In this document: one piece after another, positions 19,260 through 40,187 of the stretch
Position numbering within the stretch: the stretch's first letter is position 1
Layout: every line of letters begins with the position of its first letter
NCBI RefSeq assembly: GCF_049846925.1
Contig: NZ_JBNCMT010000002.1
Location: 7,885-71,884, forward strand
Direction: 5' to 3'
DNA from: Brevibacillus sp. SYSU BS000544
GTDB lineage: Bacteria > Bacillota > Bacilli > Brevibacillales > Brevibacillaceae
DNA: 64,000 bases
Position numbers and translations under genes: made by a program
Notes under the pieces: generated by a model
What the model was told of the DNA's origin: nothing
What the model saw: the letters and a program-made list of their open reading frames with translations, nothing else
Databases searched by the model: none

Positions 19260-19423
19260 CTTCCCCTCCTTAGAGACATCATAGTTTTTCAAAGTATCGA
19301 TAGACATCTCCTTTTGTTACTATTTTCAACATCCATATTCATCCATTTCATTCATATTAACAAATACAGAAACACATGCAATAAGGTGACCAGCACTTTT
19401 CAACTCGAACCATGAAAATTTAC

Positions 19424-19456
19424 AAAAAAAAATCCCTCCGAAGTTGGAGAGATTCT
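19424..19456 (-). terminator. Rho-independent terminator of the tat/moaA/molybdoenzyme operon; degenerate copy of the repeat-borne terminator
   Basis: aaaaaaaaatccctccgaagttggagaga on the plus strand. On the minus strand this is a hairpin followed by T9. Confidence 0.65.
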
Positions 19457-22500: not shown

Positions 22501-22530
22501 GGCTGCACCCTCCTTTCTTCGAACATACGT

Positions 22531-23897: not shown

Positions 23898-23910
23898 CTC
23901 CTATCCCCCC

Positions 23911-26124: not shown

Positions 26125-26136
26125 TTCCCTCCTTTA

Positions 26137-26757
26137 TCATTGGTAAAATAGCCTCTCCTGCTCAACCTCCAAAACTCCTTCCAAGAGATACGCCATTGCC
26201 TGACAAATTCGATTCTCAGCGTGTTTGTGAATATTTTCACAAAACTCCTTAAACCAAACCAAAAGATGTTTCTCTAGGAACTCTTTATACTGGTCAGGAA
26301 ATCCCTCTTCGGCATGAGTGGCAAGCAGGTAACAAATAAACTCTAGTTCCAAAGCAAGATGATCATCCGGCTCCATTCCCTTGTTGGCTACCTCTACACC
26401 TGCCTGTGAATAAAACAATCTAACCTGCAAGGTCTCCCTTTGCATCAATGTTTTTTCGGGGTTTCGGTAGCTTGATTCATACGGTGAAGCAAGCAGCTTG
26501 TCTGGTCCAACAAAGAGCCTATTAAATTCATACTCCACTTGCAGTGCATCTTCTTCTTGTATTCCAAGCAATAAATCAATGCATTTCCATATTTTCTGAC
26601 TAGGTAAAAGCAGTTGATACGCCTCTATGCTTGTGCAAATTTCCTTCCAATCTTGCGCACTCCACTTCAATGAACGCCCTGCATAAAAGTTCTGAAGGAT
26701 CATGAACATGCGAAAACACTCTTCCAGATGCTGGCTATACGTGTGGTTTGGTAGCAT
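26137..26757 (-). CDS. TorD/DmsD-family molybdoenzyme maturation chaperone (putative)
   Basis: ~200-aa all-helical protein immediately upstream of the Tat-dependent catalytic subunit; ribosome-binding site GGAGGAGAG. Confidence 0.55.
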   Translation of the reverse strand: MLPNHTYSQHLEECFRMFMILQNFYAGRSLKWSAQDWKEICTSIEAYQLLLPSQKIWKCIDLLLGIQEEDALQVEYEFNRLFVGPDKLLASPYESSYRNPEKTLMQRETLQVRLFYSQAGVEVANKGMEPDDHLALELEFICYLLATHAEEGFPDQYKEFLEKHLLVWFKEFCENIHKHAENRICQAMAYLLEGVLEVEQERLFYQ

Positions 26758-27009
26758 CCTTCTCTCCTCCAGTACCCTGTTTTTGAAGCTGTTTCGATTG
26801 TTGCATCAGAGCATCAAACCGTTTTTGCTGTTCATCCGTAATTTTGACCTTTCTTTCCACAATTGGCTTGGCTATTCCCTGATACTCTAAGTTGGATGAT
26901 CTGCTTTCAATTAGCGCACTCTCTGACTTTGCAGGCTGATTCGTGCACGCCGTCATCACCAGAATAGAAAGTACCAGGCAAGAATAAATGATCATCTGTT
27001 TACCCCGCA
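26735..27009 (-). CDS. Small putative lipoprotein/secreted protein (~90 aa)
   Basis: MRGKQMIIYSCLVLSILVMTAC signal with a lipobox-like TAC. Start inferred. Confidence 0.35.
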
Positions 27010-27173
27010 TTTTCTCACCTCCTGTTTCTAGTGAAATCGTATCACCTGCCCCACTGTACAAATGAACATGTTTGAAGGAGGCAGGGTGTGAATCTATCAC
27101 ATTTCGGTGTGCAAGATTGGGTGTTGTTCATCATTTGCACAAAAAAAAGCTACAAGTTTTAGAACTTGCAGCC

Positions 27174-28754
27174 TCATGTTACTATTTGAGAAATTTTAAG
27201 TGTGACAAAAACATTTAACAAATCTTCATACGAATTCAGGCTGATATCCAGTAGGCTTTCAATCTTCTTTAACCGATTTCGCAGCGTATTGGGATGAATA
27301 TAAAGAGAGTCAGAGGTTCGAGAAATATCTCCATTTTCCTGAACATACACTTCAAGCGTTCGAACCAATTCTCCATCATGCTCACGATCATACTCCAGTA
27401 ATTCTCCAAGGGTTTCTTTGAAGAATGTAATGAGAACATCGTTGTTAATGAGACAAAGTAACCGAATCACACCAATCTCTTCAAATAAAAATACGCCTTT
27501 TCTTTTCTGAAGAAATCTGCCCATTTCCAGTGCAATCTTCGCTTCCTGAAAACTCCGAAAAATCTCCAGGTTGGATCGATACAAACGCCCAATACCAACC
27601 GTAATCCTTACATCGGGAAACTTGCCTGCCAGTACCTGCTGAATTTGTGTTGCAAGGTATTTACTGAAATCTTTTCTTTCTTTTTTGGACTGTTTCTTTT
27701 CATCAAAAACAAAGACAACCACTTGATCCTGAAAATTTGTAACGATACCTGTAAGAGCCTGTGACTGGAGGATGAAGGTAATTTGATGCTTCATACTCTC
27801 CAAGAGTTCCATACTAAGGGACTGATCATTTTCGGAATGTAATTGCAGCACCATCAGCAACGGCTGCTTGGTAAAATTCCATCCCCAGAGTTTTCCTTGC
27901 GTAATCAACATCTCTTCCGATTCAAAATTGTTATACAAGACATCATAAAGAAACTGATTGGCGTATTTTCGATTCGTCTCAAGTATCGCTTCTTCTTTCT
28001 TAAACCAGGTCACGAGGCTTGGCAAAACCTGATGAACCAGTTCAATGGTCATATCAGTAATGGTTCCTCGCTCTTGTTTGATCAACAGGAATCCGTGGTT
28101 TTCCAGTTTGAACAGCAGAAACGATTCTTGTTGTTCTTGCAATAAACGGTAATCGTCTTTGGAACCGTTTCTCATCTGTACGTACCTTTGCTTCAAAAAT
28201 GTGTATTGATCCGAACCATCTACGGAGGGCATGGAAGAATGCAAAAAGAAAAAGGGGTCCAACAAGACAACTGGATTGTCGATGATCTCTGACAAACGAT
28301 CCAGCACTTTCTGGATATGATTCTCATTTATCATCGTGAGCCAGTATCTGGTCGATTGTTCCCACGCATACCGAAATAGTCCTAATTGCTTTAGTTTTTT
28401 CATTTCCTCAATCGTGCGAATGATGGAATCAAGGTCTGTATTGTCGAGAAACAGGACTGGTTTGTGTACCTCTTTGATTTTATCAAGTAGACTTGGACGA
28501 ATGTATTTTTTATCCAGATGGTAGAGTAAGACTCCCTGAATATAATCATGGTTTACTATCTCTGGAAGTTTTTGAATGTTTTCTTGCGATACTTCAAGAA
28601 TCAGCAGCGTTTGCCTCTTTACTGCTTGCAGATTTGACGCTACATCAATAAAGAAATTACCTTTTCCTGACCATCCACTAAGTATCTCAGCTTTCTGAAA
28701 AGGGTGCGCAATAATTAGCTCTTGAAAAGTCATCGTTGTTTCCAAATTACTCAC
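27174..28754 (-). CDS. PucR/CdaR-family transcriptional regulator
   Basis: 526 aa with a C-terminal PucR-type helix-turn-helix (…YIHPNTLRNRLKKIESLLDISL…). 4-nt overlap (ATGA) with the upstream 4Fe-4S gene. Confidence 0.75.
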   Translation of the reverse strand: MSNLETTMTFQELIIAHPFQKAEILSGWSGKGNFFIDVASNLQAVKRQTLLILEVSQENIQKLPEIVNHDYIQGVLLYHLDKKYIRPSLLDKIKEVHKPVLFLDNTDLDSIIRTIEEMKKLKQLGLFRYAWEQSTRYWLTMINENHIQKVLDRLSEIIDNPVVLLDPFFFLHSSMPSVDGSDQYTFLKQRYVQMRNGSKDDYRLLQEQQESFLLFKLENHGFLLIKQERGTITDMTIELVHQVLPSLVTWFKKEEAILETNRKYANQFLYDVLYNNFESEEMLITQGKLWGWNFTKQPLLMVLQLHSENDQSLSMELLESMKHQITFILQSQALTGIVTNFQDQVVVFVFDEKKQSKKERKDFSKYLATQIQQVLAGKFPDVRITVGIGRLYRSNLEIFRSFQEAKIALEMGRFLQKRKGVFLFEEIGVIRLLCLINNDVLITFFKETLGELLEYDREHDGELVRTLEVYVQENGDISRTSDSLYIHPNTLRNRLKKIESLLDISLNSYEDLLNVFVTLKISQIVT

Positions 28755-29317
28755 TCCCTCTCATCTTGTGCCCAGAAACGTTGTGATTGTACCTTTTTTT
28801 CTTTGAAACGAATAGAAGGACAAGTAATGGATTTCATCTGATAGGAAACGATTGCTTTTTGGTGCCCGGAGTTTTGCTCGCTGTTGATGTCGATGACCTG
28901 AATTGCACCCACAATGCATGATGAGACACAAGCAGGAAGCTCTCCCGACCTCTGCCTTTCCATACAAAAATCGCATTTGTCTGCTTTTCCCGTATCAGGA
29001 ATGATCGTTATTGCGTGAAACGGACAGGCATTGACGCATAACTTGCAGCCCGAACAGTTGCTTGAATCTAGCAGAACAATCCCATTCCGAGTCTTTTTAA
29101 TGCATGCAGTCGGACAAACAGACAAACAAGCAGGATTTTGACAATGGTTACAAGCGATTGACAGATAGCCGAAGATGTTTCCGTCATTTTGAGAAAGTGA
29201 AACCACTTTTCGTCGAGAGGTATCCTTTCGATTCCTTTCGTTTTTACAGGCAAATTCACAGGTTCGACACCCGATGCATTTTTGTGTATCAACCAAGAAA
29301 CCTAGCTGTTTTTCCAT
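28751..29317 (-). CDS. Second DmsB-like 4Fe-4S ferredoxin subunit
   Basis: CIGCRTCEFAC…CNHCQNPACLSVCP…CSGCKLCVNACP…CDFC…CVSSC. Confidence 0.8.
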   Translation of the reverse strand: MEKQLGFLVDTQKCIGCRTCEFACKNERNRKDTSRRKVVSLSQNDGNIFGYLSIACNHCQNPACLSVCPTACIKKTRNGIVLLDSSNCSGCKLCVNACPFHAITIIPDTGKADKCDFCMERQRSGELPACVSSCIVGAIQVIDINSEQNSGHQKAIVSYQMKSITCPSIRFKEKKVQSQRFWAQDERE

Positions 29318-29440
29318 GGGTAGCCCTTCAATTCTTCTCTGTCATGTTGGTTGCTAAAAATCTATCGTTAGTATACTATTAGCACGAATAATTGAGCGGC
29401 ACATATATTACAGATTGTTGAATCCTAAGGGGGTCAAAAC

Positions 29441-31525
29441 ATGCTCGAACCTTATACCGTAACCAGACATGTTTGCCCTCGCAACTGTTATAGTTCCTGC
29501 AGCATGCTAGGCTATTCCACTGATGGCATCCTTCAGAAAGTAGGAGGAGACCCTCTCCATGGCTACACAAAAGGAAAGCTCTGCCCCAAAGGCTTTAACT
29601 ATGTAAATCTCGTTTATCACCCTGAAAGAATCAAACACCCCATGATTCAGGAAAAGAGAGGCAGCGGCAAGTGGCGCAAGATTTCATGGGACACCGCTTT
29701 GGATATTATTTCTGAGAAAATCATTGAACTCCACCATCGCTATGATTCTCACCTGTCTCTTGCTCTGAATAAGTACTCAGGCAATTTCGGCATCTTGCAT
29801 CAAGCCGTAGAAGGAATGTTTAACAGCCTTGGTAAAACTTCAAGAGCAATCGGATCACCCTGTTGGTCACCAGGACTGGATGCCTTTCATTTTGATTTTG
29901 GTTGGCACCAAACATCTGATCTAGAAGATTTGATTCACGCCAAAACGATCATTCTCTGGGGTGTCAATCCGGTATGGACCTCGATTCATGCGCTTCCCTA
30001 TTTGTATCAGGCTAAAGAAATGGGCGCCACACTTATCACGATTGACCCAGTTTACACGGCAACTGCACAGAAATCCGATTTGTATTTTCAAGTGAAGCCA
30101 GGCAGTGACGGGGCTTTGGCACTTGCAATCGCCAAATACATCATTGATCATCAATTGCAAGACATGGATTTCATTGAAAAAAATACGGTTGGCTGGGATG
30201 AATGCAAAGCATATGTCGATTCCTTTCCAATGGAAGAGGCATTGCAAACGTGCGGTCAAACACTTGAAGCCATCAAGGAATTATCCTATCGGCTGATAGA
30301 AGGAGATCCTGTTTTTATTTGGACTGGATTCGGGTTACAGCGGCATGTACATGGTGGCCAAAGCATTCGAGCAATCAATGCTTTAGCAGCTATCACTGGG
30401 AATATTGGACGAAGAGGAAGTGGAGTACACTTTGCCAATGATCCCCAATGGAAGTTCACCTCAAACATTACAAAACACTTTCCGGATCATGTGGATCAGA
30501 ACAATTGCATCCGTCCGATTGACATTAATAACTTTGCAAAAGAGCTTCTTGGCCTGCAAGACCCTCCCGTGAAATTTCTCTGGATTTCTTGTCGCAACCT
30601 GTTAACCCAAAATCCGGATCGAGCTGTACTGATTCGGGCACTCCAATCATTAGAGCTGATTGTGACAGTCGACCTGTTCCTAACTCCCACAGCACAGTTA
30701 TCCGACATTGTCCTTCCTACCACAACGAATTTTGAAGAGTGGGATATTGTTTCAGGATACTGGCATCATTGGATCAGTATCAATCAGCCAGCAATCCCTC
30801 CTTATCACGAAAGTAAAAGTGATTTACAGATTGCCAAACTCTTATCCCAGAAATTAAATGAAAAGTCTCCCGGACTGTCTTCGTTTCCGACAGAAAAAAC
30901 GCCCATTCAATTTATTGAGGACGAATTTACTGATGAAATATATAGAGATCTGCAAATTTCTCAATGGACAGATCTTCTCAATGGCCCTAGAAGGAAACCT
31001 AGCCCCAATACAGCTTGGGAAAATTTACAGTTTGGCACTCCTTCTAAAAAAATTGAGCTTTATTCTCAATCGGCTGAAGATAGTTCCCTTCCGCCACTAG
31101 CTATGTATGTTCCTGCTCAGCAAGGAAACCAGAAATATCCCTATCGTCTGTTGATCACTCATGAACAATATCAAATCAATTCTCAATTTATTAATATTTA
31201 CTCGCTTCACGCAATCAAAACTGAACCGCACGTACTGCTTCACCCTGCGTTAGCAAAAGAAAGAAATATTGAATTGGGTGACATGGTGCGAATTTACAAC
31301 AATGATGGAGAGATGGTGATTAAAGCCAAGATTTCCTCGAGTGTAAGTAAATATACCCTACAAATTGCTCATTCGAATAACTTGCCCGTAAACAATCTGA
31401 TTTCGTTTATTCCTGCTGATATGGGAAAAGCAGTTACAGGTGCAAATGGTGTAGCGCTGAACGATACTTTTGTTGCTATTGAAAAGCTTGACGACATCAA
31501 ACTTGTCGAGTTACACCATCGTTAA
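29441..31525 (+). CDS. Second DmsA-like molybdopterin oxidoreductase catalytic subunit lacking a Tat signal (predicted cytoplasmic)
   Basis: Begins directly with the Fe-S motif VCPRNCYSSCSM at residue 12. Paralogous to 23911-26124 (KISWD…LNKYSGNF…). Ribosome-binding site AAGGGGG. Confidence 0.8.
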   Translation: MLEPYTVTRHVCPRNCYSSCSMLGYSTDGILQKVGGDPLHGYTKGKLCPKGFNYVNLVYHPERIKHPMIQEKRGSGKWRKISWDTALDIISEKIIELHHRYDSHLSLALNKYSGNFGILHQAVEGMFNSLGKTSRAIGSPCWSPGLDAFHFDFGWHQTSDLEDLIHAKTIILWGVNPVWTSIHALPYLYQAKEMGATLITIDPVYTATAQKSDLYFQVKPGSDGALALAIAKYIIDHQLQDMDFIEKNTVGWDECKAYVDSFPMEEALQTCGQTLEAIKELSYRLIEGDPVFIWTGFGLQRHVHGGQSIRAINALAAITGNIGRRGSGVHFANDPQWKFTSNITKHFPDHVDQNNCIRPIDINNFAKELLGLQDPPVKFLWISCRNLLTQNPDRAVLIRALQSLELIVTVDLFLTPTAQLSDIVLPTTTNFEEWDIVSGYWHHWISINQPAIPPYHESKSDLQIAKLLSQKLNEKSPGLSSFPTEKTPIQFIEDEFTDEIYRDLQISQWTDLLNGPRRKPSPNTAWENLQFGTPSKKIELYSQSAEDSSLPPLAMYVPAQQGNQKYPYRLLITHEQYQINSQFINIYSLHAIKTEPHVLLHPALAKERNIELGDMVRIYNNDGEMVIKAKISSSVSKYTLQIAHSNNLPVNNLISFIPADMGKAVTGANGVALNDTFVAIEKLDDIKLVELHHR

Positions 31526-32114
31526 CATACAAAAAAATCCCTCCGAAGTTCGGAGAGATCCAAATAAAAACGCCCTATCGATTATATAGGGCAGAGGTTT
31601 GTACGTGATAGATACAGTATATTCATCTTAAGCAATATACTCAATAGTGATATATAGGTATTTAAACCTTATAATAGCAAAAAAAATTGGCTGCTCACCC
31701 TGCGAATTTTGAGCGCCAATTTATTCCCCAGATCGGGTTGTACTAGATACTACCCTATATTATAGTTTTCGTAAAATTTATATTGGGGTTATATAGGTTT
31801 TTACTGGTAATTCATCGATTTTTCCTAACATACAAAAAAAAATCCCTCCGAAGTTCGGAGAGATCCAAATATAAACGCCCTATCGATTATATAGGGCGGA
31901 GGTTTGTACGTGATAGATACAGTATATTCATCTTTATCAATATACTCAATGGTGATATATAGGTATTTAAACCTTATAATAGCAAAAAAAAAATTGGCTG
32001 CTCACTCTGCAAAATTGGAGCGCCAATTTATATCCCCAGATCGGGTTGTACTAGATACTCCCTATATTATTGTTTTCGTCCAATTTATATTGGGGTTATA
32101 TAGGTTTTTACTGG
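31526..32114. repeat. Tandem direct duplication of a ~303-bp non-coding unit, two copies ~95% identical; each copy carries two terminator-like hairpins and several TATATAGGG palindromic motifs
   Basis: Copy 1 is 31526-31828 and copy 2 is 31829-32114, both beginning catacaaaaaaa(aa)tccctccgaagttcggagagatcc...; near-identical by direct reading. Confidence 0.85.
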
Positions 32115-32146
32115 AAAATTGCTATATTCAATACATCGAACCAATC

Positions 32147-32629
32147 CTACTCCTGAATCGTTAACCTGCTTACAACCTCAGTCAGACGATCCAGGTTTTC
32201 TTCATTCGCCGGAACAACAATTTCTTTTACCCTTTCCAGCTCTTCTACTGTCTCAAAACACTGCCGGAAAGTTAGACCTGTTTTGCCATGCAGGTCATCG
32301 AAAATGGCTGTTATTTGGAAGCGGTGAACCGGACCGATATGAGTCAAAACAAAGCGTTCTGGGAAGCTGATTTCATCAAATACACATTCATTCGGGTAGT
32401 CTACACCGTTCGGGCCATGCATGGTTAATTTCCAGTTTCCACCCGGCTTTAGCTCAAATTCATGAAACGTATTCGTGAAACCTTTAGGCCCCCACCATTG
32501 CGCCAGAAGTTCTGGGGATGTCCAAGCGCTAAAAACAATTTCACGTGGTGCATTAATTATTCGCTTATGCACCGATTCGCAGGTACCTGCACCTTCCGTA
32601 GAGCCTGCACTCAAATGAGCATCTGACAT
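32147..32629 (-). CDS. SRPBCC (Aha1/activator-of-Hsp90-ATPase-like) domain protein
   Basis: AHSA1-like domain (…FSAWTSPELLAQWWGPKGF…). Start at MSDAHL with a GGAGGGA ribosome-binding site. Confidence 0.7.
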   Translation of the reverse strand: MSDAHLSAGSTEGAGTCESVHKRIINAPREIVFSAWTSPELLAQWWGPKGFTNTFHEFELKPGGNWKLTMHGPNGVDYPNECVFDEISFPERFVLTHIGPVHRFQITAIFDDLHGKTGLTFRQCFETVEELERVKEIVVPANEENLDRLTEVVSRLTIQE

Positions 32630-32672
32630 TTTGAATCCCTCCGCTTCCATTATTATTTCCGCTCTCGATCTC

Positions 32673-33113
32673 CTACTTGCTTCGGAGCCCTTCGCCGAGT
32701 TTATCCAGCATGAGTTGTGTGCCATGCTCCCGCTGTTCTGGTGAATCATAGCCATCAAGGAACACACCTTGCTCTGTGAAGACCAGCCGTGTACCGTTAT
32801 CAACGGGTTCCATTTCAACCGTTACCAAGGATACTGAGATTCTGGTTTGCCCCATATCCAACGAGTAGCTGTAAACAATACGCTGTCCGGCTACAATCTC
32901 CTGATAACAAGCTTCGAACGTAAAGATTGGACCACCGGGAGGTCCCCCCTGATTCGTTTCCCTTCCTCCAACCCGAAAGTCAAACTCATCAGGCTTTTGA
33001 AACCATTGTGCTTTCGCTGCTGGATCTGCCCAAGCGGCAAATACCCTCTCAGGCGTGGTGCCATACATACGTTCAATTACAAAAGTAGCATGTTTGGCAG
33101 ATCGTTCGTTCAT
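32673..33113 (-). CDS. SRPBCC (Aha1-like) domain protein, paralogous neighbour
   Basis: …VFAAWADPAAKAQWFQ… same fold family. Confidence 0.7.
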   Translation of the reverse strand: MNERSAKHATFVIERMYGTTPERVFAAWADPAAKAQWFQKPDEFDFRVGGRETNQGGPPGGPIFTFEACYQEIVAGQRIVYSYSLDMGQTRISVSLVTVEMEPVDNGTRLVFTEQGVFLDGYDSPEQREHGTQLMLDKLGEGLRSK

Positions 33114-33116
33114 CAG

Positions 33117-33623
33117 TTATTCCTCCTTTTTAAGCACAGCATTCGCAGGCTTGGACAGAAAATCTCCCAGTCGGTCAAAGCTGCGCTCCCAGTCCAGTTT
33201 CCGCGCCGCAAAAAACTTTTCATGACTCTTCTTCATGAGCTTCAACAACTTCGTAAATTCCTCGACTGACACTTCTTCTTTTGTTTGCATCAGCCCGAGC
33301 ACGTACTCCAATTCTCCCAAAAGCTTTTGTTGAATCCGGATATTGTCTTTTATTAGCCTGATTTGCTGGGACACAACCTCGATTGGATTGTAATTTTCTC
33401 CAAGCAGCACCGATTTAACTTCATCCAGCGATAAATTCAATTCCTTTAGTGCCAAGATTTGATGTAATCGGGATAAGTCCTCTTCGTTATACAACCTGTG
33501 TCCAGAATCAGAATATCCCGATGGGGAGAACAAGCCTATCTGATCGTAATAGCGTAACGTCCGGATCGTTAACCCCGTTAGCTTCGCAAGCTCGCCTACC
33601 TTCCAGGTTGTTTTCATTCTCAT
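33117..33623 (-). CDS. MerR-family transcriptional regulator
   Basis: N-terminal helix-turn-helix WKVGELAKLTGLTIRTLRYYDQIGL. Confidence 0.8.
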   Translation of the reverse strand: MRMKTTWKVGELAKLTGLTIRTLRYYDQIGLFSPSGYSDSGHRLYNEEDLSRLHQILALKELNLSLDEVKSVLLGENYNPIEVVSQQIRLIKDNIRIQQKLLGELEYVLGLMQTKEEVSVEEFTKLLKLMKKSHEKFFAARKLDWERSFDRLGDFLSKPANAVLKKEE

Positions 33624-33778
33624 CTCCTTTCTTCCACGTGACGAATTACCGGTACCCTAACTATAAAACATTACGTAACGTTAGGTGCAAGTGTTATTTG
33701 GTATTTGCAACCATATCTTGAACGATTCGTAAAAGTAGAAAGAAATCCATCCGAATATGATGAAACGACATTCTACAA

Positions 33779-34891
33779 ATGCGTGTGCAGGATAAAATCC
33801 TTAGTGGCAGGGAAGTGAAGCTTGTGAAAAATGCACTAATGGAAATATTGACCCAAGAGCGAATGCAACGTTGGGCAAGCCCTCCAACTCATCATCTAAC
33901 AATTGGTCTGGTATCAAAAGCGGAAAGACTGGTATGGACAAAAGGTCAATGGGATGAAGACAGCGCAGCAAAATCTCTCTATGAGATCGGTTCTATTACC
34001 AAGACGATCATCGGACTATTGCTGGCAATTGGCGAACAGAAGGGAATTTGGAGTCGTTCCAATTCATTATCAGACCTCTTTCCCGAATGGTCATCAAGCT
34101 CGTTTGCACAACAAACGACCCTCTTGCAGCTTGTGACCCATACAGCAGGTCTGCCAGAGGTTCCTGCAAACTTCCGAGATACGATCGTAGATAAGCTTGA
34201 TCCTTATGCAAATTATTCAGAAGGACATTTAATAGAAGCAGTTTTAAGAGAGAGCCCGAAAACTAAAAAAAGCCACCAGTACTCCAACTATGGCTTTGGG
34301 ATACTCGGGTGGCTTCTTTCCAAACGATTAGGCAAAAACTTGGAAGATGCGCTAAATGATGAGGTTTTCAAACCTTTGGGAATGACTGATTCTCGCATCG
34401 GCTTGATTGCACAGATGAATGAGAGCAACGGCTTCGCCACCCCTCTTCCGGTCTTTAATGCGAAAGGCAAATCTGTGCCTCACTGGCATTTTCTTGACAC
34501 TATGGCAGGAGCCGGGGGCGTTTGTTCCACGATCACAGACATGCTTAACTACATCGAAGCACATTTGAACCTTACAGATGAACCAATACTGAGATCTGCG
34601 CTGGCACAATGCCATCAAGAGCACCATGCTATTTTTCCTGACAAAGGGATTGGAATCGGCTACGGTTGGATGTTCTATAAAGAAAAGGATGGCTCTACTA
34701 CTCACTGGCACAATGGAGGAACATACGGATCAAGCAGTTTTGCCACTTTTAACCGAGACAAGCAAACGGGATTGGTCATTCTGTCCAATAATGGAACCGA
34801 TCTTTGGAGTCAATTGCCGCTCATCGGTATGCACAAAATGAATGTAGATAAGTTGGCTCAAATGCTGACTACCAGGCTGTATCAAAGCTGA
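33779..34891 (+). CDS. Serine hydrolase / class C beta-lactamase-like esterase
   Basis: SxxK motif (GSITKT), YSN (QYSNYG) and HNGGT box equivalents; cytoplasmic. Start uncertain. Confidence 0.65.
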   Translation: MRVQDKILSGREVKLVKNALMEILTQERMQRWASPPTHHLTIGLVSKAERLVWTKGQWDEDSAAKSLYEIGSITKTIIGLLLAIGEQKGIWSRSNSLSDLFPEWSSSSFAQQTTLLQLVTHTAGLPEVPANFRDTIVDKLDPYANYSEGHLIEAVLRESPKTKKSHQYSNYGFGILGWLLSKRLGKNLEDALNDEVFKPLGMTDSRIGLIAQMNESNGFATPLPVFNAKGKSVPHWHFLDTMAGAGGVCSTITDMLNYIEAHLNLTDEPILRSALAQCHQEHHAIFPDKGIGIGYGWMFYKEKDGSTTHWHNGGTYGSSSFATFNRDKQTGLVILSNNGTDLWSQLPLIGMHKMNVDKLAQMLTTRLYQS

Positions 34892-34903
34892 TTTGTCACT
34901 TTT

Positions 34904-36304
34904 TTAGCGAAACAGAATGAGAATTTGGTTCGGTCCGGTTCGTCTCATCACCCAATACCCGCTTTCTGTATTTGTAGCGATCCCGCCATCGCTGGGCAGG
35001 CAATAGCCGCCTACGAAACAAGTCCCGTCATCTCGGACGAGAAGCTTTCCGATTAGACCAACCGCTGCCCATTCCGGTCGATCCATACGAGATCGGCACG
35101 GTTTCTCCGGTTCCCAGAATGGATTGATTACAGGTCGTCTCTCGGTCCTCTCTGGAGCGAGAATTCTACCATCCTGATCAGTAACGGCTGGAAAAAAGAC
35201 ATCCTCGTACTGCTTGCGGTTCCATTCATCGAGCAGGAATTTGCCACAAGCAGGATCTTCCACATCGGCTAGATACCCTGGATTGGAGCTAGTCACTCCC
35301 AGAATGTAGCTATCACTTGCAGTTGCCTTACGAATTTTCTCACTACCACTGGCAAACGTCACGAAATAGCCTACGTCTATCAGCTCTCCGTTAGAAGATT
35401 CAAACATCTCTGCAAAGTCGCAGGCACCTGCGGAAGTGATTACTCCAGCCGTGGTTACCGTTGAATCGAAACAGGCGGTTCCGTTACTTTGGATTTTGGC
35501 GACGACACCCGCTGTAGAATACTGAGAAGGACCGTTCATCAGATACCAGGAAAAGGGCAGATCACCGCCAGCAGGGTTAGGCTGCCCGTCCCTCCCCATG
35601 ACATGGACACCTTGCAAGCCATTGGTGGCAGTAAAAAAGCCTTCTGCATGGGATTGGGCTGCGTCTGCCCTTGTATTGCTTCCTTGCGCATGAGAAGAAT
35701 TACCGGAAGCCTCCGTTGAACTACCCTCTGCATGAGCTGCAAAAGCTGAAGCAGTGGTAAAAGATCCCTCTGCATGAGCAGTGAAACCTGTAGCTTTCGT
35801 TGCACTACCCTCCGCATGAGAAGATACACCACTCGCAGTTGTCGTCTCACCCTCCGCATGAGCAGCAGAACCAGTAGCCTGGGTAAAAATGCCCTCCGCA
35901 TGGGAAAAATCACCGCTGGCAATCGGACCTGGGAAAAATTCAACATTGTTTGAACCCCCTTCCGCATGAGATGCAAATCCGCTGGCTCTAGTACCAACCC
36001 CTTCTGCATGAGATCCATTTCCGCTTGCTATTGTCTGGAAACCTTCCGCATGGGATGCCTCACCACTTGCTTTCGTAAGTTCTCCCTCGGCATGCGAGCC
36101 ATTCGCCTCAGCAATGGTTTGGTATCCTTCTGAATGAGCAGTCACACCAATGGCAGTAGTTTGATACCCTTCTGCATGCGAGGCTTCACCAAACGTAATC
36201 GTAAGTTCTCCTTCCGCATGGGACGCAGGCCCGCCTGCTGTAGTATTGTTCCCTTCCGCCTCCGAGCACGGACCAAAAGCGTTATTATTGCATCCATCTG
36301 GCAT
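34904..36304 (-). CDS. SHAEG-repeat protein A: conserved Cys-containing N-cap, ~13 copies of a 14-residue [AS]HAEGxxTxA[ST]Gxx repeat, conserved ~230-aa Cys-containing C-terminal domain; no signal peptide
   Basis: Direct reading of the translation (466 aa from MPDGCNNNAFGPC). Ribosome-binding site AAGGATGA; tandem with two paralogs. Confidence 0.75.
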   Translation of the reverse strand: MPDGCNNNAFGPCSEAEGNNTTAGGPASHAEGELTITFGEASHAEGYQTTAIGVTAHSEGYQTIAEANGSHAEGELTKASGEASHAEGFQTIASGNGSHAEGVGTRASGFASHAEGGSNNVEFFPGPIASGDFSHAEGIFTQATGSAAHAEGETTTASGVSSHAEGSATKATGFTAHAEGSFTTASAFAAHAEGSSTEASGNSSHAQGSNTRADAAQSHAEGFFTATNGLQGVHVMGRDGQPNPAGGDLPFSWYLMNGPSQYSTAGVVAKIQSNGTACFDSTVTTAGVITSAGACDFAEMFESSNGELIDVGYFVTFASGSEKIRKATASDSYILGVTSSNPGYLADVEDPACGKFLLDEWNRKQYEDVFFPAVTDQDGRILAPERTERRPVINPFWEPEKPCRSRMDRPEWAAVGLIGKLLVRDDGTCFVGGYCLPSDGGIATNTESGYWVMRRTGPNQILILFR

Positions 36305-36354
36305 AGGAATCATCCTTTCTTTTGTTGGCTTATCAGCGTTATCCTAACTTTGCA

Positions 36355-38049
36355 TTAACGGAATACAACAAGAACTTGATTGGTTCCAGTCCGTTTCAAT
36401 ATCCGATAACCTGTTTCAGATTTGGTGGCGATTCCCTCATTATTGGGCATACAGTACCCTCCAACTACACAGGTTCCGTCGTCTCGGACAAGGAGTTTGC
36501 CGATCATGCCCACTGCTGCCCATTCCGGTCTTTCCAAGCGGGAACGGCACGGCTTCTCCGGTTCCCAAAAAGGATTTAGAACAGGACGTTTCTCCATTCG
36601 TTCAGGAACGATAATATTGCCTTCCCGATCCGTAATAGCAGGAAGTACGATATCTTCGTACTGCTTGCGGTTCCATTCGTCGAGCAGAAATTTGCCACAT
36701 GCTGGGTCTTCCGCATCTGCCAGTACTCCTGGATTAGAGCTGGTGATCCCCAAAATGTAGTCGTCACTTGCGTTTGCTTTGCGGATTTTCTCACTGGCAC
36801 CGTCAAGGGTTACAAAATAACCAACGTCAATCAACTCGCCGGTTGAGGTTTCATACATCTCGGCAAAGTCGCAGGCGCCAGCAGCCGTGTTAAAGGCAGA
36901 GGCAGTAACTGTTGAATCGAAGCAGGCTGTGCCGTTACTTTGGATTTTGGCTACAACTCCTGCTGTTGAGTAAGGAGCGGCTCCGTTCACCAGAAACCAG
37001 GAAAAGGGTAGGTCGCCGCCAGCCGGGTTAGGGGCCCCATTTTGTCCCATGACGTGGACGCCTATCAAACCGTTTGCGCTGGTTCTTCCGCCCTCTGTAT
37101 GGGCTAACGATGCATTTGCTATGGTTGCAGATCCTTCTGCATGAGCTGAAGTAGCACTTGCTATACTGCCATCACCTTCCGCATGAGCCGATTGTCCTGT
37201 TGCTTGAGTACCAAGCCCTTCTGCGTGAGAGCCAAATCCGCTGGAGGTGGTACTGACACCCTCCGCATGAGCAGCAACTCCGCTGGCCTTGGTCTCAATG
37301 CCTTCCGCGTGAGAAGAAGGTCCGCTGGCTTCTGTAGAGGTTCCTTCTGCATGAGCCGCTCGTGCAGTAGCATCAGTGCCTTCCCCTTCCGCATGGGAGG
37401 CAAATCCGCTTGCTAATGTAGAGTTACCTTCCGCATGGGAAGAAACGCCGCTTGCTAGAGAAAACGCTCCTTCTACATGAGCGCCTAAGTTTGATGCTTC
37501 TGTTGTGAACCCCTCAGCATGAGAGGCAAATCCACTAGAGGTAGTTCCACTTCCTTCCGCATGGGAATTAACTCCGCTGGCCGTTGTGTTGTCTCCTTCC
37601 GCATGAGCAGCATCGTTTGTCGCCTTAGTAGATATACCTTCCGCATGGGAAAAGTTGCCGCTGGCTATCGGAGCAGGAGTAGAAGCAATATCTGGTGTAC
37701 CTCCTTCCGCATGAGCGCCGAGTCCACTGGCGGTTGTAGCAATCCCTTCTGCATGAGAGGCATTTCCACTTGCCGTTGCTTGGAAGCCTTCCGCATGGGA
37801 TGCCTCACCGCTTGCTTTCGTAAGTTCACCCTCGGCATGCGAGCCGTTCGCTTCAGCAATGGTTTGATATCCTTCTGAATGAGCAGTCACACCAATGGCA
37901 GTTGTCTGATATCCTTCCGCATGAGAAGCTTCACCAAAAGTAATGGTAAGTTCACCTTCCGCATGGGATGCAGGTCCACCAGCCGTGGTATTATTACCTT
38001 CCGCCTCCGAGCAAGGACCAAAAGCGTTATTATTGCATCCATCTGACAT
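36355..38049 (-). CDS. SHAEG-repeat protein B (paralog; ~21 repeats; 565 aa)
   Basis: Start at MSDGCNNNAFGPC with an AAAGGAGG ribosome-binding site 8 nt upstream. N-terminal ~95 aa identical to A at the protein level; conserved C-terminal domain ending GTNQVLVVFR. Confidence 0.75.
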   Translation of the reverse strand: MSDGCNNNAFGPCSEAEGNNTTAGGPASHAEGELTITFGEASHAEGYQTTAIGVTAHSEGYQTIAEANGSHAEGELTKASGEASHAEGFQATASGNASHAEGIATTASGLGAHAEGGTPDIASTPAPIASGNFSHAEGISTKATNDAAHAEGDNTTASGVNSHAEGSGTTSSGFASHAEGFTTEASNLGAHVEGAFSLASGVSSHAEGNSTLASGFASHAEGEGTDATARAAHAEGTSTEASGPSSHAEGIETKASGVAAHAEGVSTTSSGFGSHAEGLGTQATGQSAHAEGDGSIASATSAHAEGSATIANASLAHTEGGRTSANGLIGVHVMGQNGAPNPAGGDLPFSWFLVNGAAPYSTAGVVAKIQSNGTACFDSTVTASAFNTAAGACDFAEMYETSTGELIDVGYFVTLDGASEKIRKANASDDYILGITSSNPGVLADAEDPACGKFLLDEWNRKQYEDIVLPAITDREGNIIVPERMEKRPVLNPFWEPEKPCRSRLERPEWAAVGMIGKLLVRDDGTCVVGGYCMPNNEGIATKSETGYRILKRTGTNQVLVVFR

Positions 38050-38089
38050 GCAAAGCGCCTCCTTTATTGATAAGGCTTGTAAGTAGTTT

Positions 38090-39931
38090 TTAGCGGAACA
38101 AAACAAGAATCTGATTAGGCCCTGTCCGTTTCATTACCCAATATCCACTTTCTGTTTTCGTTGCGATCCCATCATTGTTGGGCATGCAATAACCAGCAGG
38201 TATACAGGTTCCATCGTCACGTACAAGAAGCTTGCCGACAAGCCCAACCGCAGCCCATTCAGGCCTTTCCATGCGAGATCGGCATGGCTTTTCCGGTTCC
38301 CAGAAGGGATTGCGAACAGGTCGTCTCTCCGTCCGCTCGGGAACGATTATATTGCCCTCGTGATCGGTAACTGCAGGATGTATGAAATCCTCATATTGTT
38401 TTCGGTTCCATTCATCGAGCAAAAATTTGCCACAAGCAGGGTCTTCCGAATCTGCAATGATCCCTGGATTGGAGCTTGTCACCCCTAGGATATAGCTGTC
38501 ACTTGCTGTTGCTTTACGGATTTTTTCCCCGGTTTCATCAAATGTCACGAAATAGCCGACGTCAATCGTCTCTCCGGTTGAAGATTCAAACATCTCAGCA
38601 AAGTCGCACGCTCCAGCAGAAGTGATTACCCCGGCTGTGGTTACCGTTGAATCGAAACATGCAGAGCCGTTACTCAGGATTTTGGCAACGACTCCAAAGT
38701 TTATCAGATACCAGGAAAAGGAGAGGTCACCGCTAAGAGGGTTCGGGCCGCCATTGGTTCCCATGACATGGGCACCTTGCAAACCACCGGCATGAGTTGC
38801 CAATCCTTCGGTATGGGAAAATGCTCCATTAGCGATTGTGCTTTGTCCCTCAGCATGGGACGCAGGTCCGCTGGCAGTTGTAAAGGTTCCTTCCGCATGA
38901 GCAGATAAACTGGAAGCTAGTGTACTATTTCCCTCTGCATGAGATGTAATTCCACTAGCCACTGTAGCTCCTCCCTCCGCATGGGATGCCGGTCCGCTGG
39001 CCTCGGTACTGAATCCTTCCGCATGAGCTGCAGCAACTGTAGCTTTCGTATTTGATCCCTCTGCATGGGAAGCTTGGGCACTGGCAATAGTTGTAAACCC
39101 TTCCGCATGAGCTCCTTCCGCTGTGGCTTGAGTAGATCTCCCTTCCGCATGAGCAGCAATGCCGCTAGCGATTGTGAGGAGGCCCTCCGCATGAGCATCC
39201 GGACCTGTCGCCTGTGTTTGTTCCCCTTCTGCATGAGCACCGGGACCGCTGGCAGTTGTATTTCTCCCTTCTGCGTGAGAGTGTGTACCGCTAGCAGTTG
39301 TCAGTGAACCCTCCGAATGAGCCGCATCACCTGTAGCCTTGGTTTGAGAACCCTCCGCATGAGAAACATCCCCTTCGGCCTTGGTTTGCAGACCTTCTGC
39401 ATGAGAAAAAGTTCCACTGGCCATGGACTCAGCACCCTCCGCATGAGCGGCATCTCCACTGGCAACTGAACCCTGCCCTTCCGCATGAGCCGCAGGGGCT
39501 GTAGCTTGTGTTCTTAATCCTTCTGCGTGGGAAAAATCACCGCTGGCAACCGGGCCTGGAGCAAATACAGGATTTTCTGTACCACCTTCGGCATGAGCGG
39601 CAAAGCCACTGGCGGTTGTCACAAAACCTTCCGCATGAGCGGCATTACCACTAGCAGTAGTCTGCAATCCTTCCGCATGCGATGCCTCACCGCTTGCAGT
39701 CGTAAGCTCCCCCTCTGCATGTGAACCATTTCCACCAGCTATCGTTTGGTATCCCTCCGAATGAGCAGTAACACCAATGGCAGTAGTCTGATATCCTTCC
39801 GCATGAGAGGCTTCGCCAAAAGTAATGGTTAGTTCGCCTTCCGCATGGGATGCGGGTCCACCTGCTGTCGTATTGTGCCCTTCCGCCTCAGCACACGGCC
39901 CAAAAGCGTTATTGTTGCATCCATCTGCCAT
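38090..39931 (-). CDS. SHAEG-repeat protein C (paralog; ~24 repeats; ~613 aa)
   Basis: Start MADGCNNNAFGPC (ribosome-binding site AGAAAGGATGA); alternative start at 39940. First gene of the three-gene array. Confidence 0.75.
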   Translation of the reverse strand: MADGCNNNAFGPCAEAEGHNTTAGGPASHAEGELTITFGEASHAEGYQTTAIGVTAHSEGYQTIAGGNGSHAEGELTTASGEASHAEGLQTTASGNAAHAEGFVTTASGFAAHAEGGTENPVFAPGPVASGDFSHAEGLRTQATAPAAHAEGQGSVASGDAAHAEGAESMASGTFSHAEGLQTKAEGDVSHAEGSQTKATGDAAHSEGSLTTASGTHSHAEGRNTTASGPGAHAEGEQTQATGPDAHAEGLLTIASGIAAHAEGRSTQATAEGAHAEGFTTIASAQASHAEGSNTKATVAAAHAEGFSTEASGPASHAEGGATVASGITSHAEGNSTLASSLSAHAEGTFTTASGPASHAEGQSTIANGAFSHTEGLATHAGGLQGAHVMGTNGGPNPLSGDLSFSWYLINFGVVAKILSNGSACFDSTVTTAGVITSAGACDFAEMFESSTGETIDVGYFVTFDETGEKIRKATASDSYILGVTSSNPGIIADSEDPACGKFLLDEWNRKQYEDFIHPAVTDHEGNIIVPERTERRPVRNPFWEPEKPCRSRMERPEWAAVGLVGKLLVRDDGTCIPAGYCMPNNDGIATKTESGYWVMKRTGPNQILVLFR

Positions 39932-40187
39932 TTGAGTCATCCTTTCTGGTTACTTGATCATGTTTTGCTTTGATCCATCTCTTTCCTTGAAAAAGAAGTT
40001 TACGAGATATTCACCCAAAGGGAACTAGGCTACTATTTACTTCGATAAATAACAATACAGTTTATGAAAGAATGAGAAGTTTGCTTGTTCGAGTGACATG
40101 CCCGTTACCGCATGGATACGCAGGTTAATAACCATTTTTAGGGGAATTGGTACTTATTTAGCAATATTTTGGGGAGGTGAGAATCCT

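What the first reader, a model, noticed from the sequence alone, without database searches (positions are those of the whole stretch)
31526..32146. Tandem ~303-bp non-coding duplication carrying terminator hairpins and TATATAGGG palindromes; related element reused as the tat/moaA operon terminator
The 620-bp convergent intergenic region between the cytoplasmic DmsA-like gene (+) and the SRPBCC gene (-) consists of two ~95%-identical direct copies of a ~303-bp unit.

Read on the minus strand, each copy contains:
- a hairpin ctccgaacttcggag followed by T9 (a strong intrinsic terminator);
- a second hairpin ttggcgctc…gagcagccaa followed by T9;
- several inverted copies of the motif ATTATATAGGG / CCCTATATAAT, including the hairpin gccctatcgattatatagggc.

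A degenerate third copy of the first ~60 bp sits at 19424-19480 (aaaaaaaaatccctccgaagttggagagattctaacgatc…) and acts as the terminator of the long tat/moaA/molybdoenzyme operon. The unit is therefore a dispersed, duplicating element.

Two readings are possible: a terminator-bearing MITE/REP-like element, or a small RNA gene with its own promoter and terminators that has been tandemly duplicated. The A/T-rich TATATAGG motifs could be promoter or regulator-binding sites.
Basis: seen in the sequence. Interest (0 to 1): 0.6.

Follow-up and report, generated by a model that had tools for sequence, protein, structure and literature searches.

The report
Duplicated terminator-bearing spacer, possible sibling sRNAs
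The 620-bp gap between two convergent genes of a Brevibacillus strain is a real duplication of a small module that ends in a transcription terminator; it may encode sibling small RNAs, but it has no detectable relatives anywhere and nothing marks it as a mobile element.

Summary
The tandem duplication is real. Copy A is 31523-31825 and copy B is 31826-~32149. They differ by 13 substitutions and 4 small indels over about 288 nt, and together they fill the whole stop-to-stop spacer.

On the minus strand each copy carries two hairpin-plus-U-run terminators (T2, then T1) and a GC-clamped hairpin (H). Each copy also looks like an older duplication of a ~140-nt module (X, Y).

The claimed "third copy" at 19.4 kb is only a 34-nt terminator cassette behind tatC, not 60 bp of the unit.

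There is no Rfam family, tRNA or conserved ORF. I found no inverted ends and no transposase in the window. No other copy turned up in the window, in relatives' syntenic loci, or in the genome, metagenome, viral, plasmid and phage collections. The source (Brevibacillus sp. SYSU BS000544) is not in the searchable genome set, so genome-wide copy number stays untested.

Best reading (0.40): a lineage-specific array of sibling small-RNA genes on the minus strand. Nearly as likely (0.38): a functionless duplication of the convergent genes' terminator/3'-UTR region. A MITE/REP-like element is unlikely (0.07).

Interest is modest.

The parts
31523..31825 (.). Copy A of the tandem unit (303 bp). It begins with the TAA stop codon of the Mo-oxidoreductase gene.
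31826..32149 (.). Copy B of the tandem unit. It aligns well with copy A up to 32117; the tail is loosely alignable up to the SRPBCC stop codon at 32147-32149.
31531..31559 (-). T1_A: predicted intrinsic terminator, AUCUCUCCGAACUUCGGAGGGAU followed by U7. It lies 5 nt from the stop codon of the convergent Mo gene.
   Evidence: Hairpin energy is -13.3 kcal/mol on the minus strand against -9.4 on the plus strand.
31834..31864 (-). T1_B: the same terminator hairpin followed by U9.
31571..31593 (-). H_A: GC-clamped hairpin UGCCCUAUAUAAUCGAUAGGGCG followed by UUUUUAUUU. The closing pair is U.G on the minus strand only.
31876..31898 (-). H_B: hairpin CGCCCUAUAUAAUCGAUAGGGCG with a C-G closing pair.
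31679..31719 (-). T2_A: hairpin UUGGCGCUC..GAGCAGCCAA followed by U8. On the + strand the same hairpin is preceded by A8 and followed by UUUAUU, so it may act as a bidirectional terminator for both convergent genes.
31984..32026 (-). T2_B: the same hairpin followed by U10. It is the first terminator downstream of the SRPBCC stop codon (about 120 nt). Four substitutions relative to T2_A all fall between the conserved outer arms; one (31710/32017) removes the innermost A-U pair that copy A can form.
31593..31615 (-). Y_A: predicted single-stranded segment GUAUCUAUCACGUACAAACCUCU (candidate seed; CCUCU here, CCUCC in copy B).
31898..31920 (-). Y_B: predicted single-stranded segment GUAUCUAUCACGUACAAACCUCC (contains an anti-Shine-Dalgarno-like CCUCC).
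31735..31750 (-). X_A: segment GUAUCUAGUACAACCC, the counterpart of the Y segment.
32043..32058 (-). X_B: segment GUAUCUAGUACAACCC.
31616..31644 (-). Promoter-like site TTGAGT-17-TATACT upstream of Y_A (9 of 12 matches). The two hexamers are also the arms of an AU-rich inverted repeat, so this evidence is ambiguous.
   Evidence: (I2/I13)
31921..31949 (-). The same promoter-like site upstream of Y_B. The hexamers are unchanged between copies; two substitutions fall in the spacer.
31647..31675 (+). Plus-strand promoter-like site GTGATA-17-TATAAT (10 of 12 matches), copy A. It would drive an RNA antisense to module X.
31952..31980 (+). Plus-strand promoter-like site GTGATA-17-TATAAT, copy B.
31583..31590 (+). 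TATATAGG motif (part of hairpin H_A).
31651..31658 (+). TATATAGG motif at the 5' end of module Y_A.
31753..31760 (+). Inverted motif CCCTATAT in module X_A. It can pair with the motif at 31790.
   Evidence: (I8/I16)
31790..31797 (+). TATATAGG motif at the 5' end of module X_A. This position is homologous to 31651 in the X/Y alignment.
31888..31895 (+). TATATAGG motif (part of hairpin H_B).
31956..31963 (+). TATATAGG motif at the 5' end of module Y_B.
32060..32067 (+). Inverted motif CCCTATAT in module X_B.
32097..32104 (+). TATATAGG motif at the 5' end of module X_B.
19421..19455 (-). Third T1 cassette: UCUCUCCAACUUCGGAGGGA followed by U9 and GUA, 8 nt downstream of the tatC stop codon. It is 97% identical to T1 over 34 nt, with one base deleted in the loop.
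29441..31525 (+). Flanking gene: molybdopterin oxidoreductase with no signal peptide (Fe4S4, Molybdopterin and Molydop_binding domains). Its closest named relative is the B. ginsengisoli protein, 89% identical.
32147..32629 (-). Flanking gene: SRPBCC/AHSA1 protein (160 aa), the last gene of a merR-SRPBCC-SRPBCC string. An identical protein is recorded for Brevibacillus sp. SYSU BS000544.

Best explanation
SHOWN
- A ~140-150-nt module, read on the minus strand, has been amplified locally in two steps.
- The module consists of an AU-rich 5' part with CCUAUAUA/UAUAUAGG arms, a conserved stretch GUAUCUA..GUACAA(A)CC, a short GC-clamped hairpin, an A/U-rich linker, and a hairpin followed by a U-run.
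- An old duplication produced modules X (ending in T2) and Y (ending in T1).
- A more recent duplication copied the X-Y pair as a 303-bp unit.
- The four modules now fill the entire spacer between the convergent Mo-oxidoreductase and SRPBCC genes.
- No copy was found outside this spacer in anything searchable, except the T1 cassette behind tatC; the rest of the source genome could not be searched.

INFERRED
- The modules, or at least the two Y modules, are independent small-RNA genes.
- They would be transcribed from sigma-A-like promoters lying just downstream of the preceding terminator.
- The products would be RNAs of about 80-115 nt. Each would have an exposed 5' segment (AUCACGUACAAACCUCC in copy B) that could pair with ribosome-binding regions of target mRNAs.
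- That makes them a lineage-specific set of sibling sRNAs.
- The 34-nt T1 cassette behind tatC would be a copy of the terminator alone, not of the RNA gene.
For: - The duplication and its anatomy are established.
- Four hairpin + U-run sites lie on the same strand, about 150 nt apart, although one would be enough for the SRPBCC operon.
- T1 is 3.9 kcal/mol more stable on the minus strand, through a G.U pair that becomes a C.A mismatch on the plus strand.
- The one substitution in hairpin H changes C-G to U.G, on the minus strand only.
- The 79-nt putative Y RNA folds with z = -4.7 and -5.0 (0 of 200 shuffles as stable). Copy B leaves a 16-nt unpaired 5' segment ahead of two clean hairpins; copy A's minimum-energy fold pairs part of that segment.
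- The 130-nt version folds with z = -3.9 and -4.0.
- The minus strand of the whole unit folds better than the plus strand: z = -3.2/-4.6 against -2.3/-3.2.
- X and Y align locally better than 481 to 500 of 500 dinucleotide shuffles, and they share the same order of elements.
- None of the 13 substitutions between the copies breaks T1, H or the outer stem of T2.
- A promoter-like TTGAGT-17-TATACT site lies 72 nt upstream of T1, with both hexamers unchanged between copies.
- Both flanking genes point into the spacer. It therefore cannot be a 5' leader or riboswitch, only 3' ends or independent genes.
- From general knowledge: tandem repeats of this size are lost by recombination much faster than they gain 4.5% substitutions. 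This hints that both copies are being kept.
- Tandem sibling sRNAs that arose by duplication are an established kind (PMC4211561).
Against: - There is no expression data, and no homologue in any other genome, so covariation and conservation cannot be tested.
- Promoter-like sites are not enriched over shuffled sequence: 6 against 5.4.
- The best minus-strand candidate's hexamers are also the arms of an AU-rich palindrome.
- Candidate promoters for X are poor and differ between the copies (read).
- The substitution pattern is not statistically distinguishable from uniform. About 2.7 stem hits would be expected and 1-2 are seen.
- X folds only modestly better than shuffles, z about -2.3.
- X-Y homology is marginal in one of the four comparisons (19 of 500 shuffles).
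- A scan of 58 translation-initiation regions in the window found no outstanding target for the putative seeds.
- The same T1 hairpin serves as a plain mRNA terminator behind tatC. T1 therefore does not need to belong to an RNA gene.
Confidence: 0.4

Rival explanations
1. There is no separate gene. The unit is simply the 3'-UTR and terminator region shared by two convergent transcription units. T2 would act as a bidirectional terminator and T1 (with H) as a fail-safe against antisense read-through into the Mo gene. The region would have been duplicated by unequal or illegitimate recombination and kept for no functional reason. The 4.5% divergence could mean that copy B arrived with the adjacent ~11-kb species-specific segment from a diverged strain, rather than long in-situ persistence.
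For: - The repeat spans exactly stop codon to stop codon.
- T2 has an A-run on one side and a T-rich tract on the other, and equal stability on both strands: -11.8 against -11.9 kcal/mol.
- Promoter-like sites are at chance level.
- The unit is absent from relatives, so there is no evidence of purifying selection.
- The unit lies at a synteny break. B. ginsengisoli matches window 21433-31489 and then only from 42758 onward.
- T1 is used as an ordinary gene terminator behind tatC.
- The substitution pattern is statistically compatible with neutrality.
Against: - Even a single unit carries two strong same-strand terminators 150 nt apart, separated by AT-rich, promoter-like DNA.
- The older X/Y duplication also persisted.
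- The Y segment is unusually well folded, with a free 5' tail in copy B.
- Tandem duplications are normally unstable (general knowledge).
Confidence: 0.38
2. It is a non-autonomous mobile or REP-like element. Under this view the 303-bp unit, or its 34-nt T1 palindrome, is a dispersed repeat that inserts at gene ends and supplies terminators.
For: - The 34-nt T1 cassette is 97% identical at two loci 12 kb apart, while about 25 other terminator-like hairpins in the window are unrelated to each other.
- Both loci are synteny break points relative to B. ginsengisoli.
- Independent short-read (Logan) contigs of the same strain break 35 nt and 62 nt into the repeat.
Against: - Only T1 recurs. No other part of the unit is found in 64 kb.
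- The unit ends carry no terminal inverted repeats among the pairs listed, and I saw no target-site duplication when reading the junctions.
- No transposase, integrase or Y1-transposase domain was found in the window's proteins that were annotated.
- The exact T1 core is absent from 185,579 species-representative genomes and from JGI metagenomes apart from chance hits in 64% GC coding DNA.
- The contig breaks are fully explained by the tandem copies themselves.
- The Logan contig runs uninterrupted through the tatC cassette.
Confidence: 0.07
3. The functional strand or molecule is a different one. Either a plus-strand RNA starts at GTGATA-17-TATAAT (31647-31675 and 31952-31980) and acts as antisense to module X and to the SRPBCC 3' end, or the recurrent TATATAGG boxes form an array of binding sites for a DNA-binding protein.
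For: - The plus-strand site is the best promoter match in the region (10 of 12) and is identical in both copies.
- On the plus strand, CCCUAUAU..AUAUAGG followed by U5 can form a terminator-like hairpin.
- TATATAGG is over-represented within a single unit: 10 of 2000 shuffles.
Against: - The plus-strand segments fold no better than shuffles, z = -1.5 and -1.8.
- The G.U evidence favours the minus strand.
- Motif spacing is irregular: 68, 139, 98, 68 and 141 bp.
- Two of the motifs are explained by X/Y paralogy, and the others form hairpin arms.
- A convergent spacer is an odd place for an operator.
Confidence: 0.08
4. It is an assembly artefact: a single spacer was wrongly written twice.
For: The source is a draft assembly, and the k-mer (Logan) assembly of the same strain does not resolve the region.
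Against: - The copies differ at 13 substitutions and 4 indels spread along their length. An artefactual duplicate would be identical.
- The Logan contigs stop exactly where 31-mers become shared by the two copies. This is expected if the sequence truly occurs at least twice.
Confidence: 0.02

Closest known systems
Tandem sibling sRNAs (OmrA/OmrB, PrrF1/PrrF2, AbcR1/AbcR2, some csRNAs; reviewed in PMC4211561). Listeria LhrC1-4 is added from my own memory.
   Same: - Several paralogous units of about 60-150 nt sit head to tail in one intergenic region.
- Each unit ends in a Rho-independent terminator.
- The 5'/seed and 3' parts are the most similar, and the origin is local duplication.
- A C-rich/anti-SD-like exposed segment (CCUCC) resembles csRNA, LhrC and RsaE-type seeds (the latter comparison is from memory).
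   Different: - There is no transcript evidence, no significant promoter, no identified regulator or target, and no conservation outside one strain.
- There is no sequence or covariance-model match to any of those families.
- Two different terminators alternate here (T2, T1), and the duplicated unit is a pair of modules.
Bidirectional or tandem intrinsic terminators between convergent genes.
   Same: - GC-containing hairpins followed by U-runs sit directly after stop codons.
- T2 is flanked by an A-run and a T-rich tract.
- The T1 cassette behind tatC is a textbook terminator.
   Different: - There are four same-strand terminators in 620 bp, and the whole spacer is duplicated.
- A 34-nt terminator is shared nearly identically by two unrelated loci.
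MITE/REP-type intergenic repeats that carry terminators (Neisseria Correia elements, pneumococcal BOX/RUP, Bacillus cereus-group bcr1, enterobacterial REP/RAYT). All recalled from memory, not checked here.
   Same: - AT-rich, structured, non-coding DNA at gene 3' ends.
- It is able to supply terminators.
- A short palindrome recurs at a second locus.
   Different: - The unit has no terminal inverted repeats, no target-site duplication and no cognate transposase.
- Apart from the 34-nt hairpin, it has only this one locus in 64 kb.
- Its arrangement is tandem rather than dispersed.
Rfam anti-hemB (RF02837) and Bacillus ncr1575 (RF02452), the best sub-threshold hits.
   Same: A hairpin followed by a terminator hairpin and a U-run, on the minus strand.
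   Different: Scores are 24.6 and 22.1 bits, against gathering cut-offs of 49.5 and 60. The alignments rest on the generic terminator only. It is not a member of either family.

Membership tests
Any curated RNA family (Rfam 15) | A covariance-model score at or above the family's gathering threshold. | tested here: not met
   There are 0 matches in the whole window at gathering thresholds. The best sub-threshold hit scores 24.6 bits against 49.5 required. ARAGORN finds no tRNA or tmRNA.
Intrinsic (Rho-independent) terminator | A GC-containing hairpin immediately followed by a U-run on the transcribed strand. | tested here: met
   T1 occurs three times and T2 twice, with U7-U10 on the minus strand. 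Function is predicted, not measured.
Tandem sibling sRNAs | Two or more paralogous units arranged in tandem. | tested here: met
   Copy A and copy B are 95.5% identical without gaps. X against Y beats 481-500 of 500 shuffles.
Tandem sibling sRNAs | Each unit has its own promoter. | tested here: inconclusive
   TTGAGT-17-TATACT lies upstream of Y and is conserved in both copies. However, the count of promoter-like sites equals the shuffle expectation, and the hexamers overlap a palindrome. The X candidates are weak.
Tandem sibling sRNAs | Discrete, stable transcripts. | not testable with these tools
   No transcriptome is available for Brevibacillus sp. SYSU BS000544, and no paper mentions the strain.
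Tandem sibling sRNAs | Conservation of the seed and structure in related genomes. | tested here: not met
   No homologue was found in the B. ginsengisoli locus or in two more distant syntenic loci. None was found in any collection scanned.
MITE | Terminal inverted repeats and target-site duplications. | tested here: not met
   No inverted pair joins the two unit ends in the list. I saw no duplicated flank when reading the junctions.
MITE / REP | Many dispersed copies in the genome. | tested here: inconclusive
   No further unit copy occurs in 64 kb, and only one extra T1 cassette. The whole source genome is not in any searchable collection.
REP/RAYT | An associated Y1 (IS200/IS605-like) transposase. 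| tested here: not met
   No such Pfam domain was found among the window's proteins that were annotated. The rest of the genome was not tested.
Type I toxin-antitoxin locus | A conserved small hydrophobic ORF with an RBS, opposed by an antisense RNA. | tested here: not met
   ORFs differ between the copies: an 8-aa ORF in copy A against an 84-aa read-through in copy B. The 20-aa minus-strand ORF has no SD and only non-synonymous changes. None of six candidate ORFs exists in the 15-billion-protein collection.
dif / replication-terminus site | A 28-bp XerCD site at the point where GC skew switches sign. | tested here: not met
   The best match to the B. subtilis dif sequence (recalled from memory) is 18 of 28 and lies outside the unit. 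GC skew is negative across the whole window.

The most novel reading that the evidence does not exclude
One Brevibacillus lineage has recently built a family of up to four sibling small RNAs with an anti-SD-like seed. It did so by repeatedly duplicating a terminator-ended module at the edge of a molybdoenzyme gene block. The 34-nt terminator of that module is itself a portable cassette that has been copied to the end of the tat/moaA operon. This would be a snapshot of de novo sRNA-family birth and of copy-and-paste spread of a terminator without any transposase.
Probability: 0.15. Interest if true: 0.5.

Novelty: new member of a known kind. Interest (0 to 1): 0.28.

Why it matters
If the modules are transcribed, this would be a very young, strain-specific sibling-sRNA array. 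Both duplication steps are still readable in it, which would make it a useful case for how sRNA families arise. The near-identical 34-nt terminator at a second locus would also show that terminators can be copied as independent cassettes.

If the modules are not transcribed independently, the region is just a duplicated terminator spacer at an island boundary, of local interest only. In either case the element is confined to one draft genome and nothing about it challenges current understanding.

Tried and rejected
- Tandem Repeats Finder gave no rows, so the repeat had to be shown with the repeat finder, MAFFT and blastn.
- Rfam at gathering and at permissive thresholds gave nothing usable. 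ARAGORN gave nothing.
It returned one chance hit in a Gaiellaceae MAG.
- Both metagenome scans (H core, T1 core) returned nothing or chance hits in 64% GC coding DNA.
- Two viral scans returned nothing. blastn of the whole 624 bp against plasmids and phages returned nothing.
- Comparative genomics through protein neighbours found that the orthologous Mo-enzyme loci of B. ginsengisoli (89% aa), a Logan genome (82%) and a 72% relative all lose synteny right after the gene. None contains a unit homologue.
- The nearest SRPBCC homologue (76%) sits in an unrelated context.
- One look-up was wasted on the identical protein. One window-end protein was not on record. The other showed that the Logan contig starts at window position ~50, so the window could not be extended.
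- Six ORFs of the unit were looked up in the protein collection, to test coding and to find dispersed copies through spurious gene calls. None is on record.
- A duplex scan of the putative seeds against 58 translation-initiation regions in the window gave top hits only about 2 SD from the mean, which is uninformative.
- I tested whether the flanks of the tatC cassette are a decayed copy of the Mo-gene 3' end or of the unit. They are not above chance in a position-consistent way.
- dif or Ter site: rejected.
- Type I toxin-antitoxin or small protein: rejected.
- sigma-B and ECF-type promoter consensus sequences were checked by eye on both strands. No match was found (own reading).
Full report
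**Observation**

The spacer between the molybdopterin oxidoreductase gene (29441-31525, +) and the SRPBCC/AHSA1 gene (32147-32629, -) is made of two head-to-tail copies of a ~303-bp unit.
- The repeat finder reports five co-linear direct-repeat families with 303-308-bp spacing.
- blastn of one copy against the window finds the other at 93.5% identity over 293 columns, E = 5e-123.
- A global alignment shows 13 substitutions and 4 small indels over about 288 nt, which is 95.5% identity without gaps. Two of the indels are length changes of A-runs.
- Tandem Repeats Finder reports nothing.

Both copies begin with TAACATACAAAAAAA. In copy A the TAA is the stop codon of the oxidoreductase gene. The tails (CATCGA..CCTA) remain loosely alignable up to the SRPBCC stop codon. 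The repeated segment is therefore the complete stop-to-stop spacer.

The flanking gene identities were confirmed with Pfam. The SRPBCC start codon at 32629 was confirmed by an exact protein match.

An assembly artefact is unlikely. The copies differ along their whole length. An independent k-mer assembly of the same strain (Logan SRR33145512) breaks 35 nt and 62 nt into the repeat from either side, exactly where 31-mers become shared by the two copies.

**Anatomy**

Read on the minus strand, each unit contains the following elements, in the direction of transcription away from the SRPBCC gene.
- An AU-rich part that starts with CCUAUAUA.
- The stretch GUAUCUAGUACAACCC.
- A small hairpin, CCCGAUCUGGG.
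- An A/U-rich linker.
- Hairpin T2 (UUGGCGCUC..GAGCAGCCAA) followed by U8 or U10.
- A second AU-rich part, again starting with CCUAUAUA.
- The stretch GUAUCUAUCACGUACAAACCUCC.
- Hairpin H (CGCCCUAUAUAAUCGAUAGGGCG).
- The linker UUUAUAUUUGG.
- Hairpin T1 (AUCUCUCCGAACUUCGGAGGGAU) followed by U7 or U9.

The two halves (X, ending in T2, and Y, ending in T1) share this order of elements. They align locally better than 481 to 500 of 500 dinucleotide shuffles, depending on the pair compared. I read this as an older duplication. It is suggestive rather than proven.

TATATAGG occurs six times in the window, all inside the repeat (0.84 expected). Three same-strand copies within one unit are reached by 10 of 2000 shuffles.
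- Two of the three positions correspond to each other in the X/Y alignment.
- The third is part of hairpin H.
- The inverted copy in X can pair with the X box.

The motif is therefore largely explained by paralogy and hairpin arms.

**Strand**

- T1 is -13.3 kcal/mol on the minus strand and -9.4 on the plus strand, because a G.U pair becomes a C.A mismatch.
- The only substitution inside H turns C-G into U.G on the minus strand.
- T2 and H are otherwise symmetric.
- All long U-runs are on the minus strand.
- The whole unit folds better on the minus strand: z = -3.2/-4.6 against -2.3/-3.2.
- On the plus strand, T2 is preceded by an A-run and followed by UUUAUU. It could also stop the oxidoreductase transcript, which has no other plausible terminator.

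**The "third copy"**

Only 19421-19453 matches: 33-34 nt at 97% identity, E = 1e-9 within the window. This is the A-run, the T1 hairpin with one loop base missing, and three further bases. Neither flank aligns above chance in register.

The cassette lies 8 nt downstream of the tatC stop codon, with U9 on the minus strand, and it folds at -13.8 kcal/mol. Calling it the operon terminator is a fair prediction.

It is odd that about 25 other terminator-like hairpins in the window are all unrelated to each other, while this one recurs nearly identically 12 kb away. I could not explain this.

Both T1 loci are synteny break points relative to B. ginsengisoli. Its locus matches window 21433-31489 and then resumes only at 42758.

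**Distribution**

The SRPBCC protein is identical to one recorded for Brevibacillus sp. SYSU BS000544. No paper mentions that strain.

The oxidoreductase is 89% identical to the B. ginsengisoli protein, followed by relatives at 82% and 72%. Their loci keep the gene cluster upstream, but synteny ends directly after the oxidoreductase gene. None contains anything like the unit.

Further searches found no relative.
- The T1 core against 185,579 species-representative genomes returned one chance hit.
- The H and T1 cores against JGI metagenomes returned none, or chance hits in 64% GC coding DNA.
- Both cores against IMG/VR returned nothing.
- The full 624 bp against plasmids and phages with blastn returned nothing.
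- A profile of the four modules run against the window and all loci returned only the four modules themselves.

The source genome is not in any DNA collection I could scan, so its genome-wide copy number is unknown. That is the main gap in this assessment.

**What it is not**

- It matches no Rfam family, even permissively. The best hit is 24.6 bits against 49.5 required, resting on the generic terminator.
- There is no tRNA or tmRNA.
- There is no conserved ORF. The plus-strand GGAGG-GTG ORF is 8 aa in copy A and 84 aa in copy B. The 20-aa minus-strand ORF has no SD and only non-synonymous differences. None of six candidate ORFs exists in a 15-billion-protein collection.
- No terminal inverted repeats join the unit ends.
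- No transposase, integrase or Y1-transposase domain turned up in the window's proteins that were annotated.
- It is not a dif or terminus site.
- Both neighbouring genes point into the spacer, so it cannot be a leader or riboswitch for either.

**Interpretation**

Two readings are nearly balanced.

(a) Sibling sRNA genes (0.40).
- A single unit already has two strong same-strand terminators 150 nt apart, separated by AT-rich DNA with a TTGAGT-17-TATACT site whose hexamers are unchanged between the copies.
- The RNA from that site to T1 would be about 79 nt. It folds with z = -4.7 and -5.0, and in copy B it leaves a 16-nt unpaired 5' segment containing CCUCC.
- The older X/Y duplication and the 4.5%-diverged recent one both persisted. 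Tandem repeats are normally lost quickly (general knowledge), so this hints at retention.
- Tandem sibling sRNAs that arose by duplication are well documented (PMC4211561).
- The proposed mode of action is pairing of the exposed segment with ribosome-binding regions. This is pure inference, and a scan of the window's 58 start regions found no outstanding partner.

(b) A functionless duplication of the convergent genes' terminator/3'-UTR region (0.38).
- Promoter-like sites are at chance level: 6 against 5.4.
- The best candidate's hexamers coincide with a palindrome.
- The X promoters are poor.
- The substitution pattern is statistically neutral.
- There is no conservation outside this strain.
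- T1 works as a plain terminator behind tatC.
- The unit sits at the edge of an ~11-kb species-specific segment. Copy B may have arrived already diverged.

Three minor rivals remain: a REP/MITE-like element (0.07), a plus-strand antisense RNA or protein-binding array (0.08), and an assembly artefact (0.02).

**Comparison and verdict**

The region works most like either tandem sibling sRNAs or redundant convergent terminators. It is a member of no curated family.
- The defining features of MITEs, type I toxin-antitoxin loci and dif sites were tested and not met.
- Of the sibling-sRNA criteria, paralogy and terminators are met, promoters are inconclusive, transcripts are untestable, and conservation is not met.

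The feature is real and lineage-specific, but it is ordinary in kind. I rate it as a new member of a known kind, with interest about 0.28.

The decisive experiments are a whole-genome BLAST of the unit and of T1 in the SYSU BS000544 assembly, and strand-specific 5'/3'-end RNA mapping.

Noticed in passing
window 19421-19453 versus 31531-31559 and 31834-31864: The 12-kb molybdoenzyme block (tatC through the oxidoreductase gene) is bracketed by direct, same-orientation copies of the 34-nt T1 terminator cassette. Both ends coincide with synteny breaks relative to B. ginsengisoli. No recombinase gene is nearby.
   Followed up: partly
window 34904-39940 (-): Three consecutive paralogous genes encode Peptidase_G2/intramolecular-chaperone-domain proteins (469, 583 and 616 aa; one also has a YadA-head repeat). 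The Logan short-read contig breaks inside them.
   Followed up: no
window 40287-41261 (-), 41364-42683 (+), 42758-43363 (-): A full Zn-alcohol-dehydrogenase gene and a C-terminal ADH fragment flank a PQQ beta-propeller gene. The fragment, not the full copy, is the better match (about 78% in translation) to the syntenic B. ginsengisoli ADH. This suggests an insertion that split or duplicated the gene.
   Followed up: partly
window 32147-33623 (-): A MerR-family regulator gene is followed by two tandem SRPBCC/AHSA1 genes. They are part of an ~11-kb segment (31526-42757) that is absent at this position in B. ginsengisoli.
   Followed up: partly
window 19462-21423 (-) versus L003: tatA-moaA-tatC follow the DMSO-reductase-like operon in this strain and in a 72% relative (L005). 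They are missing at this position in B. ginsengisoli.
   Followed up: no
window 12312-14299 (-): Four consecutive ORFs (154, 130, 136 and 111 aa) have no Pfam match at E <= 1e-5.
   Followed up: no
window 9803-9833: A near-perfect 31-nt palindrome (GAGCAGTTAGC..GCTAACTGCTC) is flanked by T-rich tracts on both strands. It looks like a bidirectional terminator.
   Followed up: no
window 5184-7798 (-): Type I restriction-modification specificity (HsdS) and methylase (HsdM) genes lie here. No adjacent HsdR was seen in the annotated stretch.
   Followed up: no
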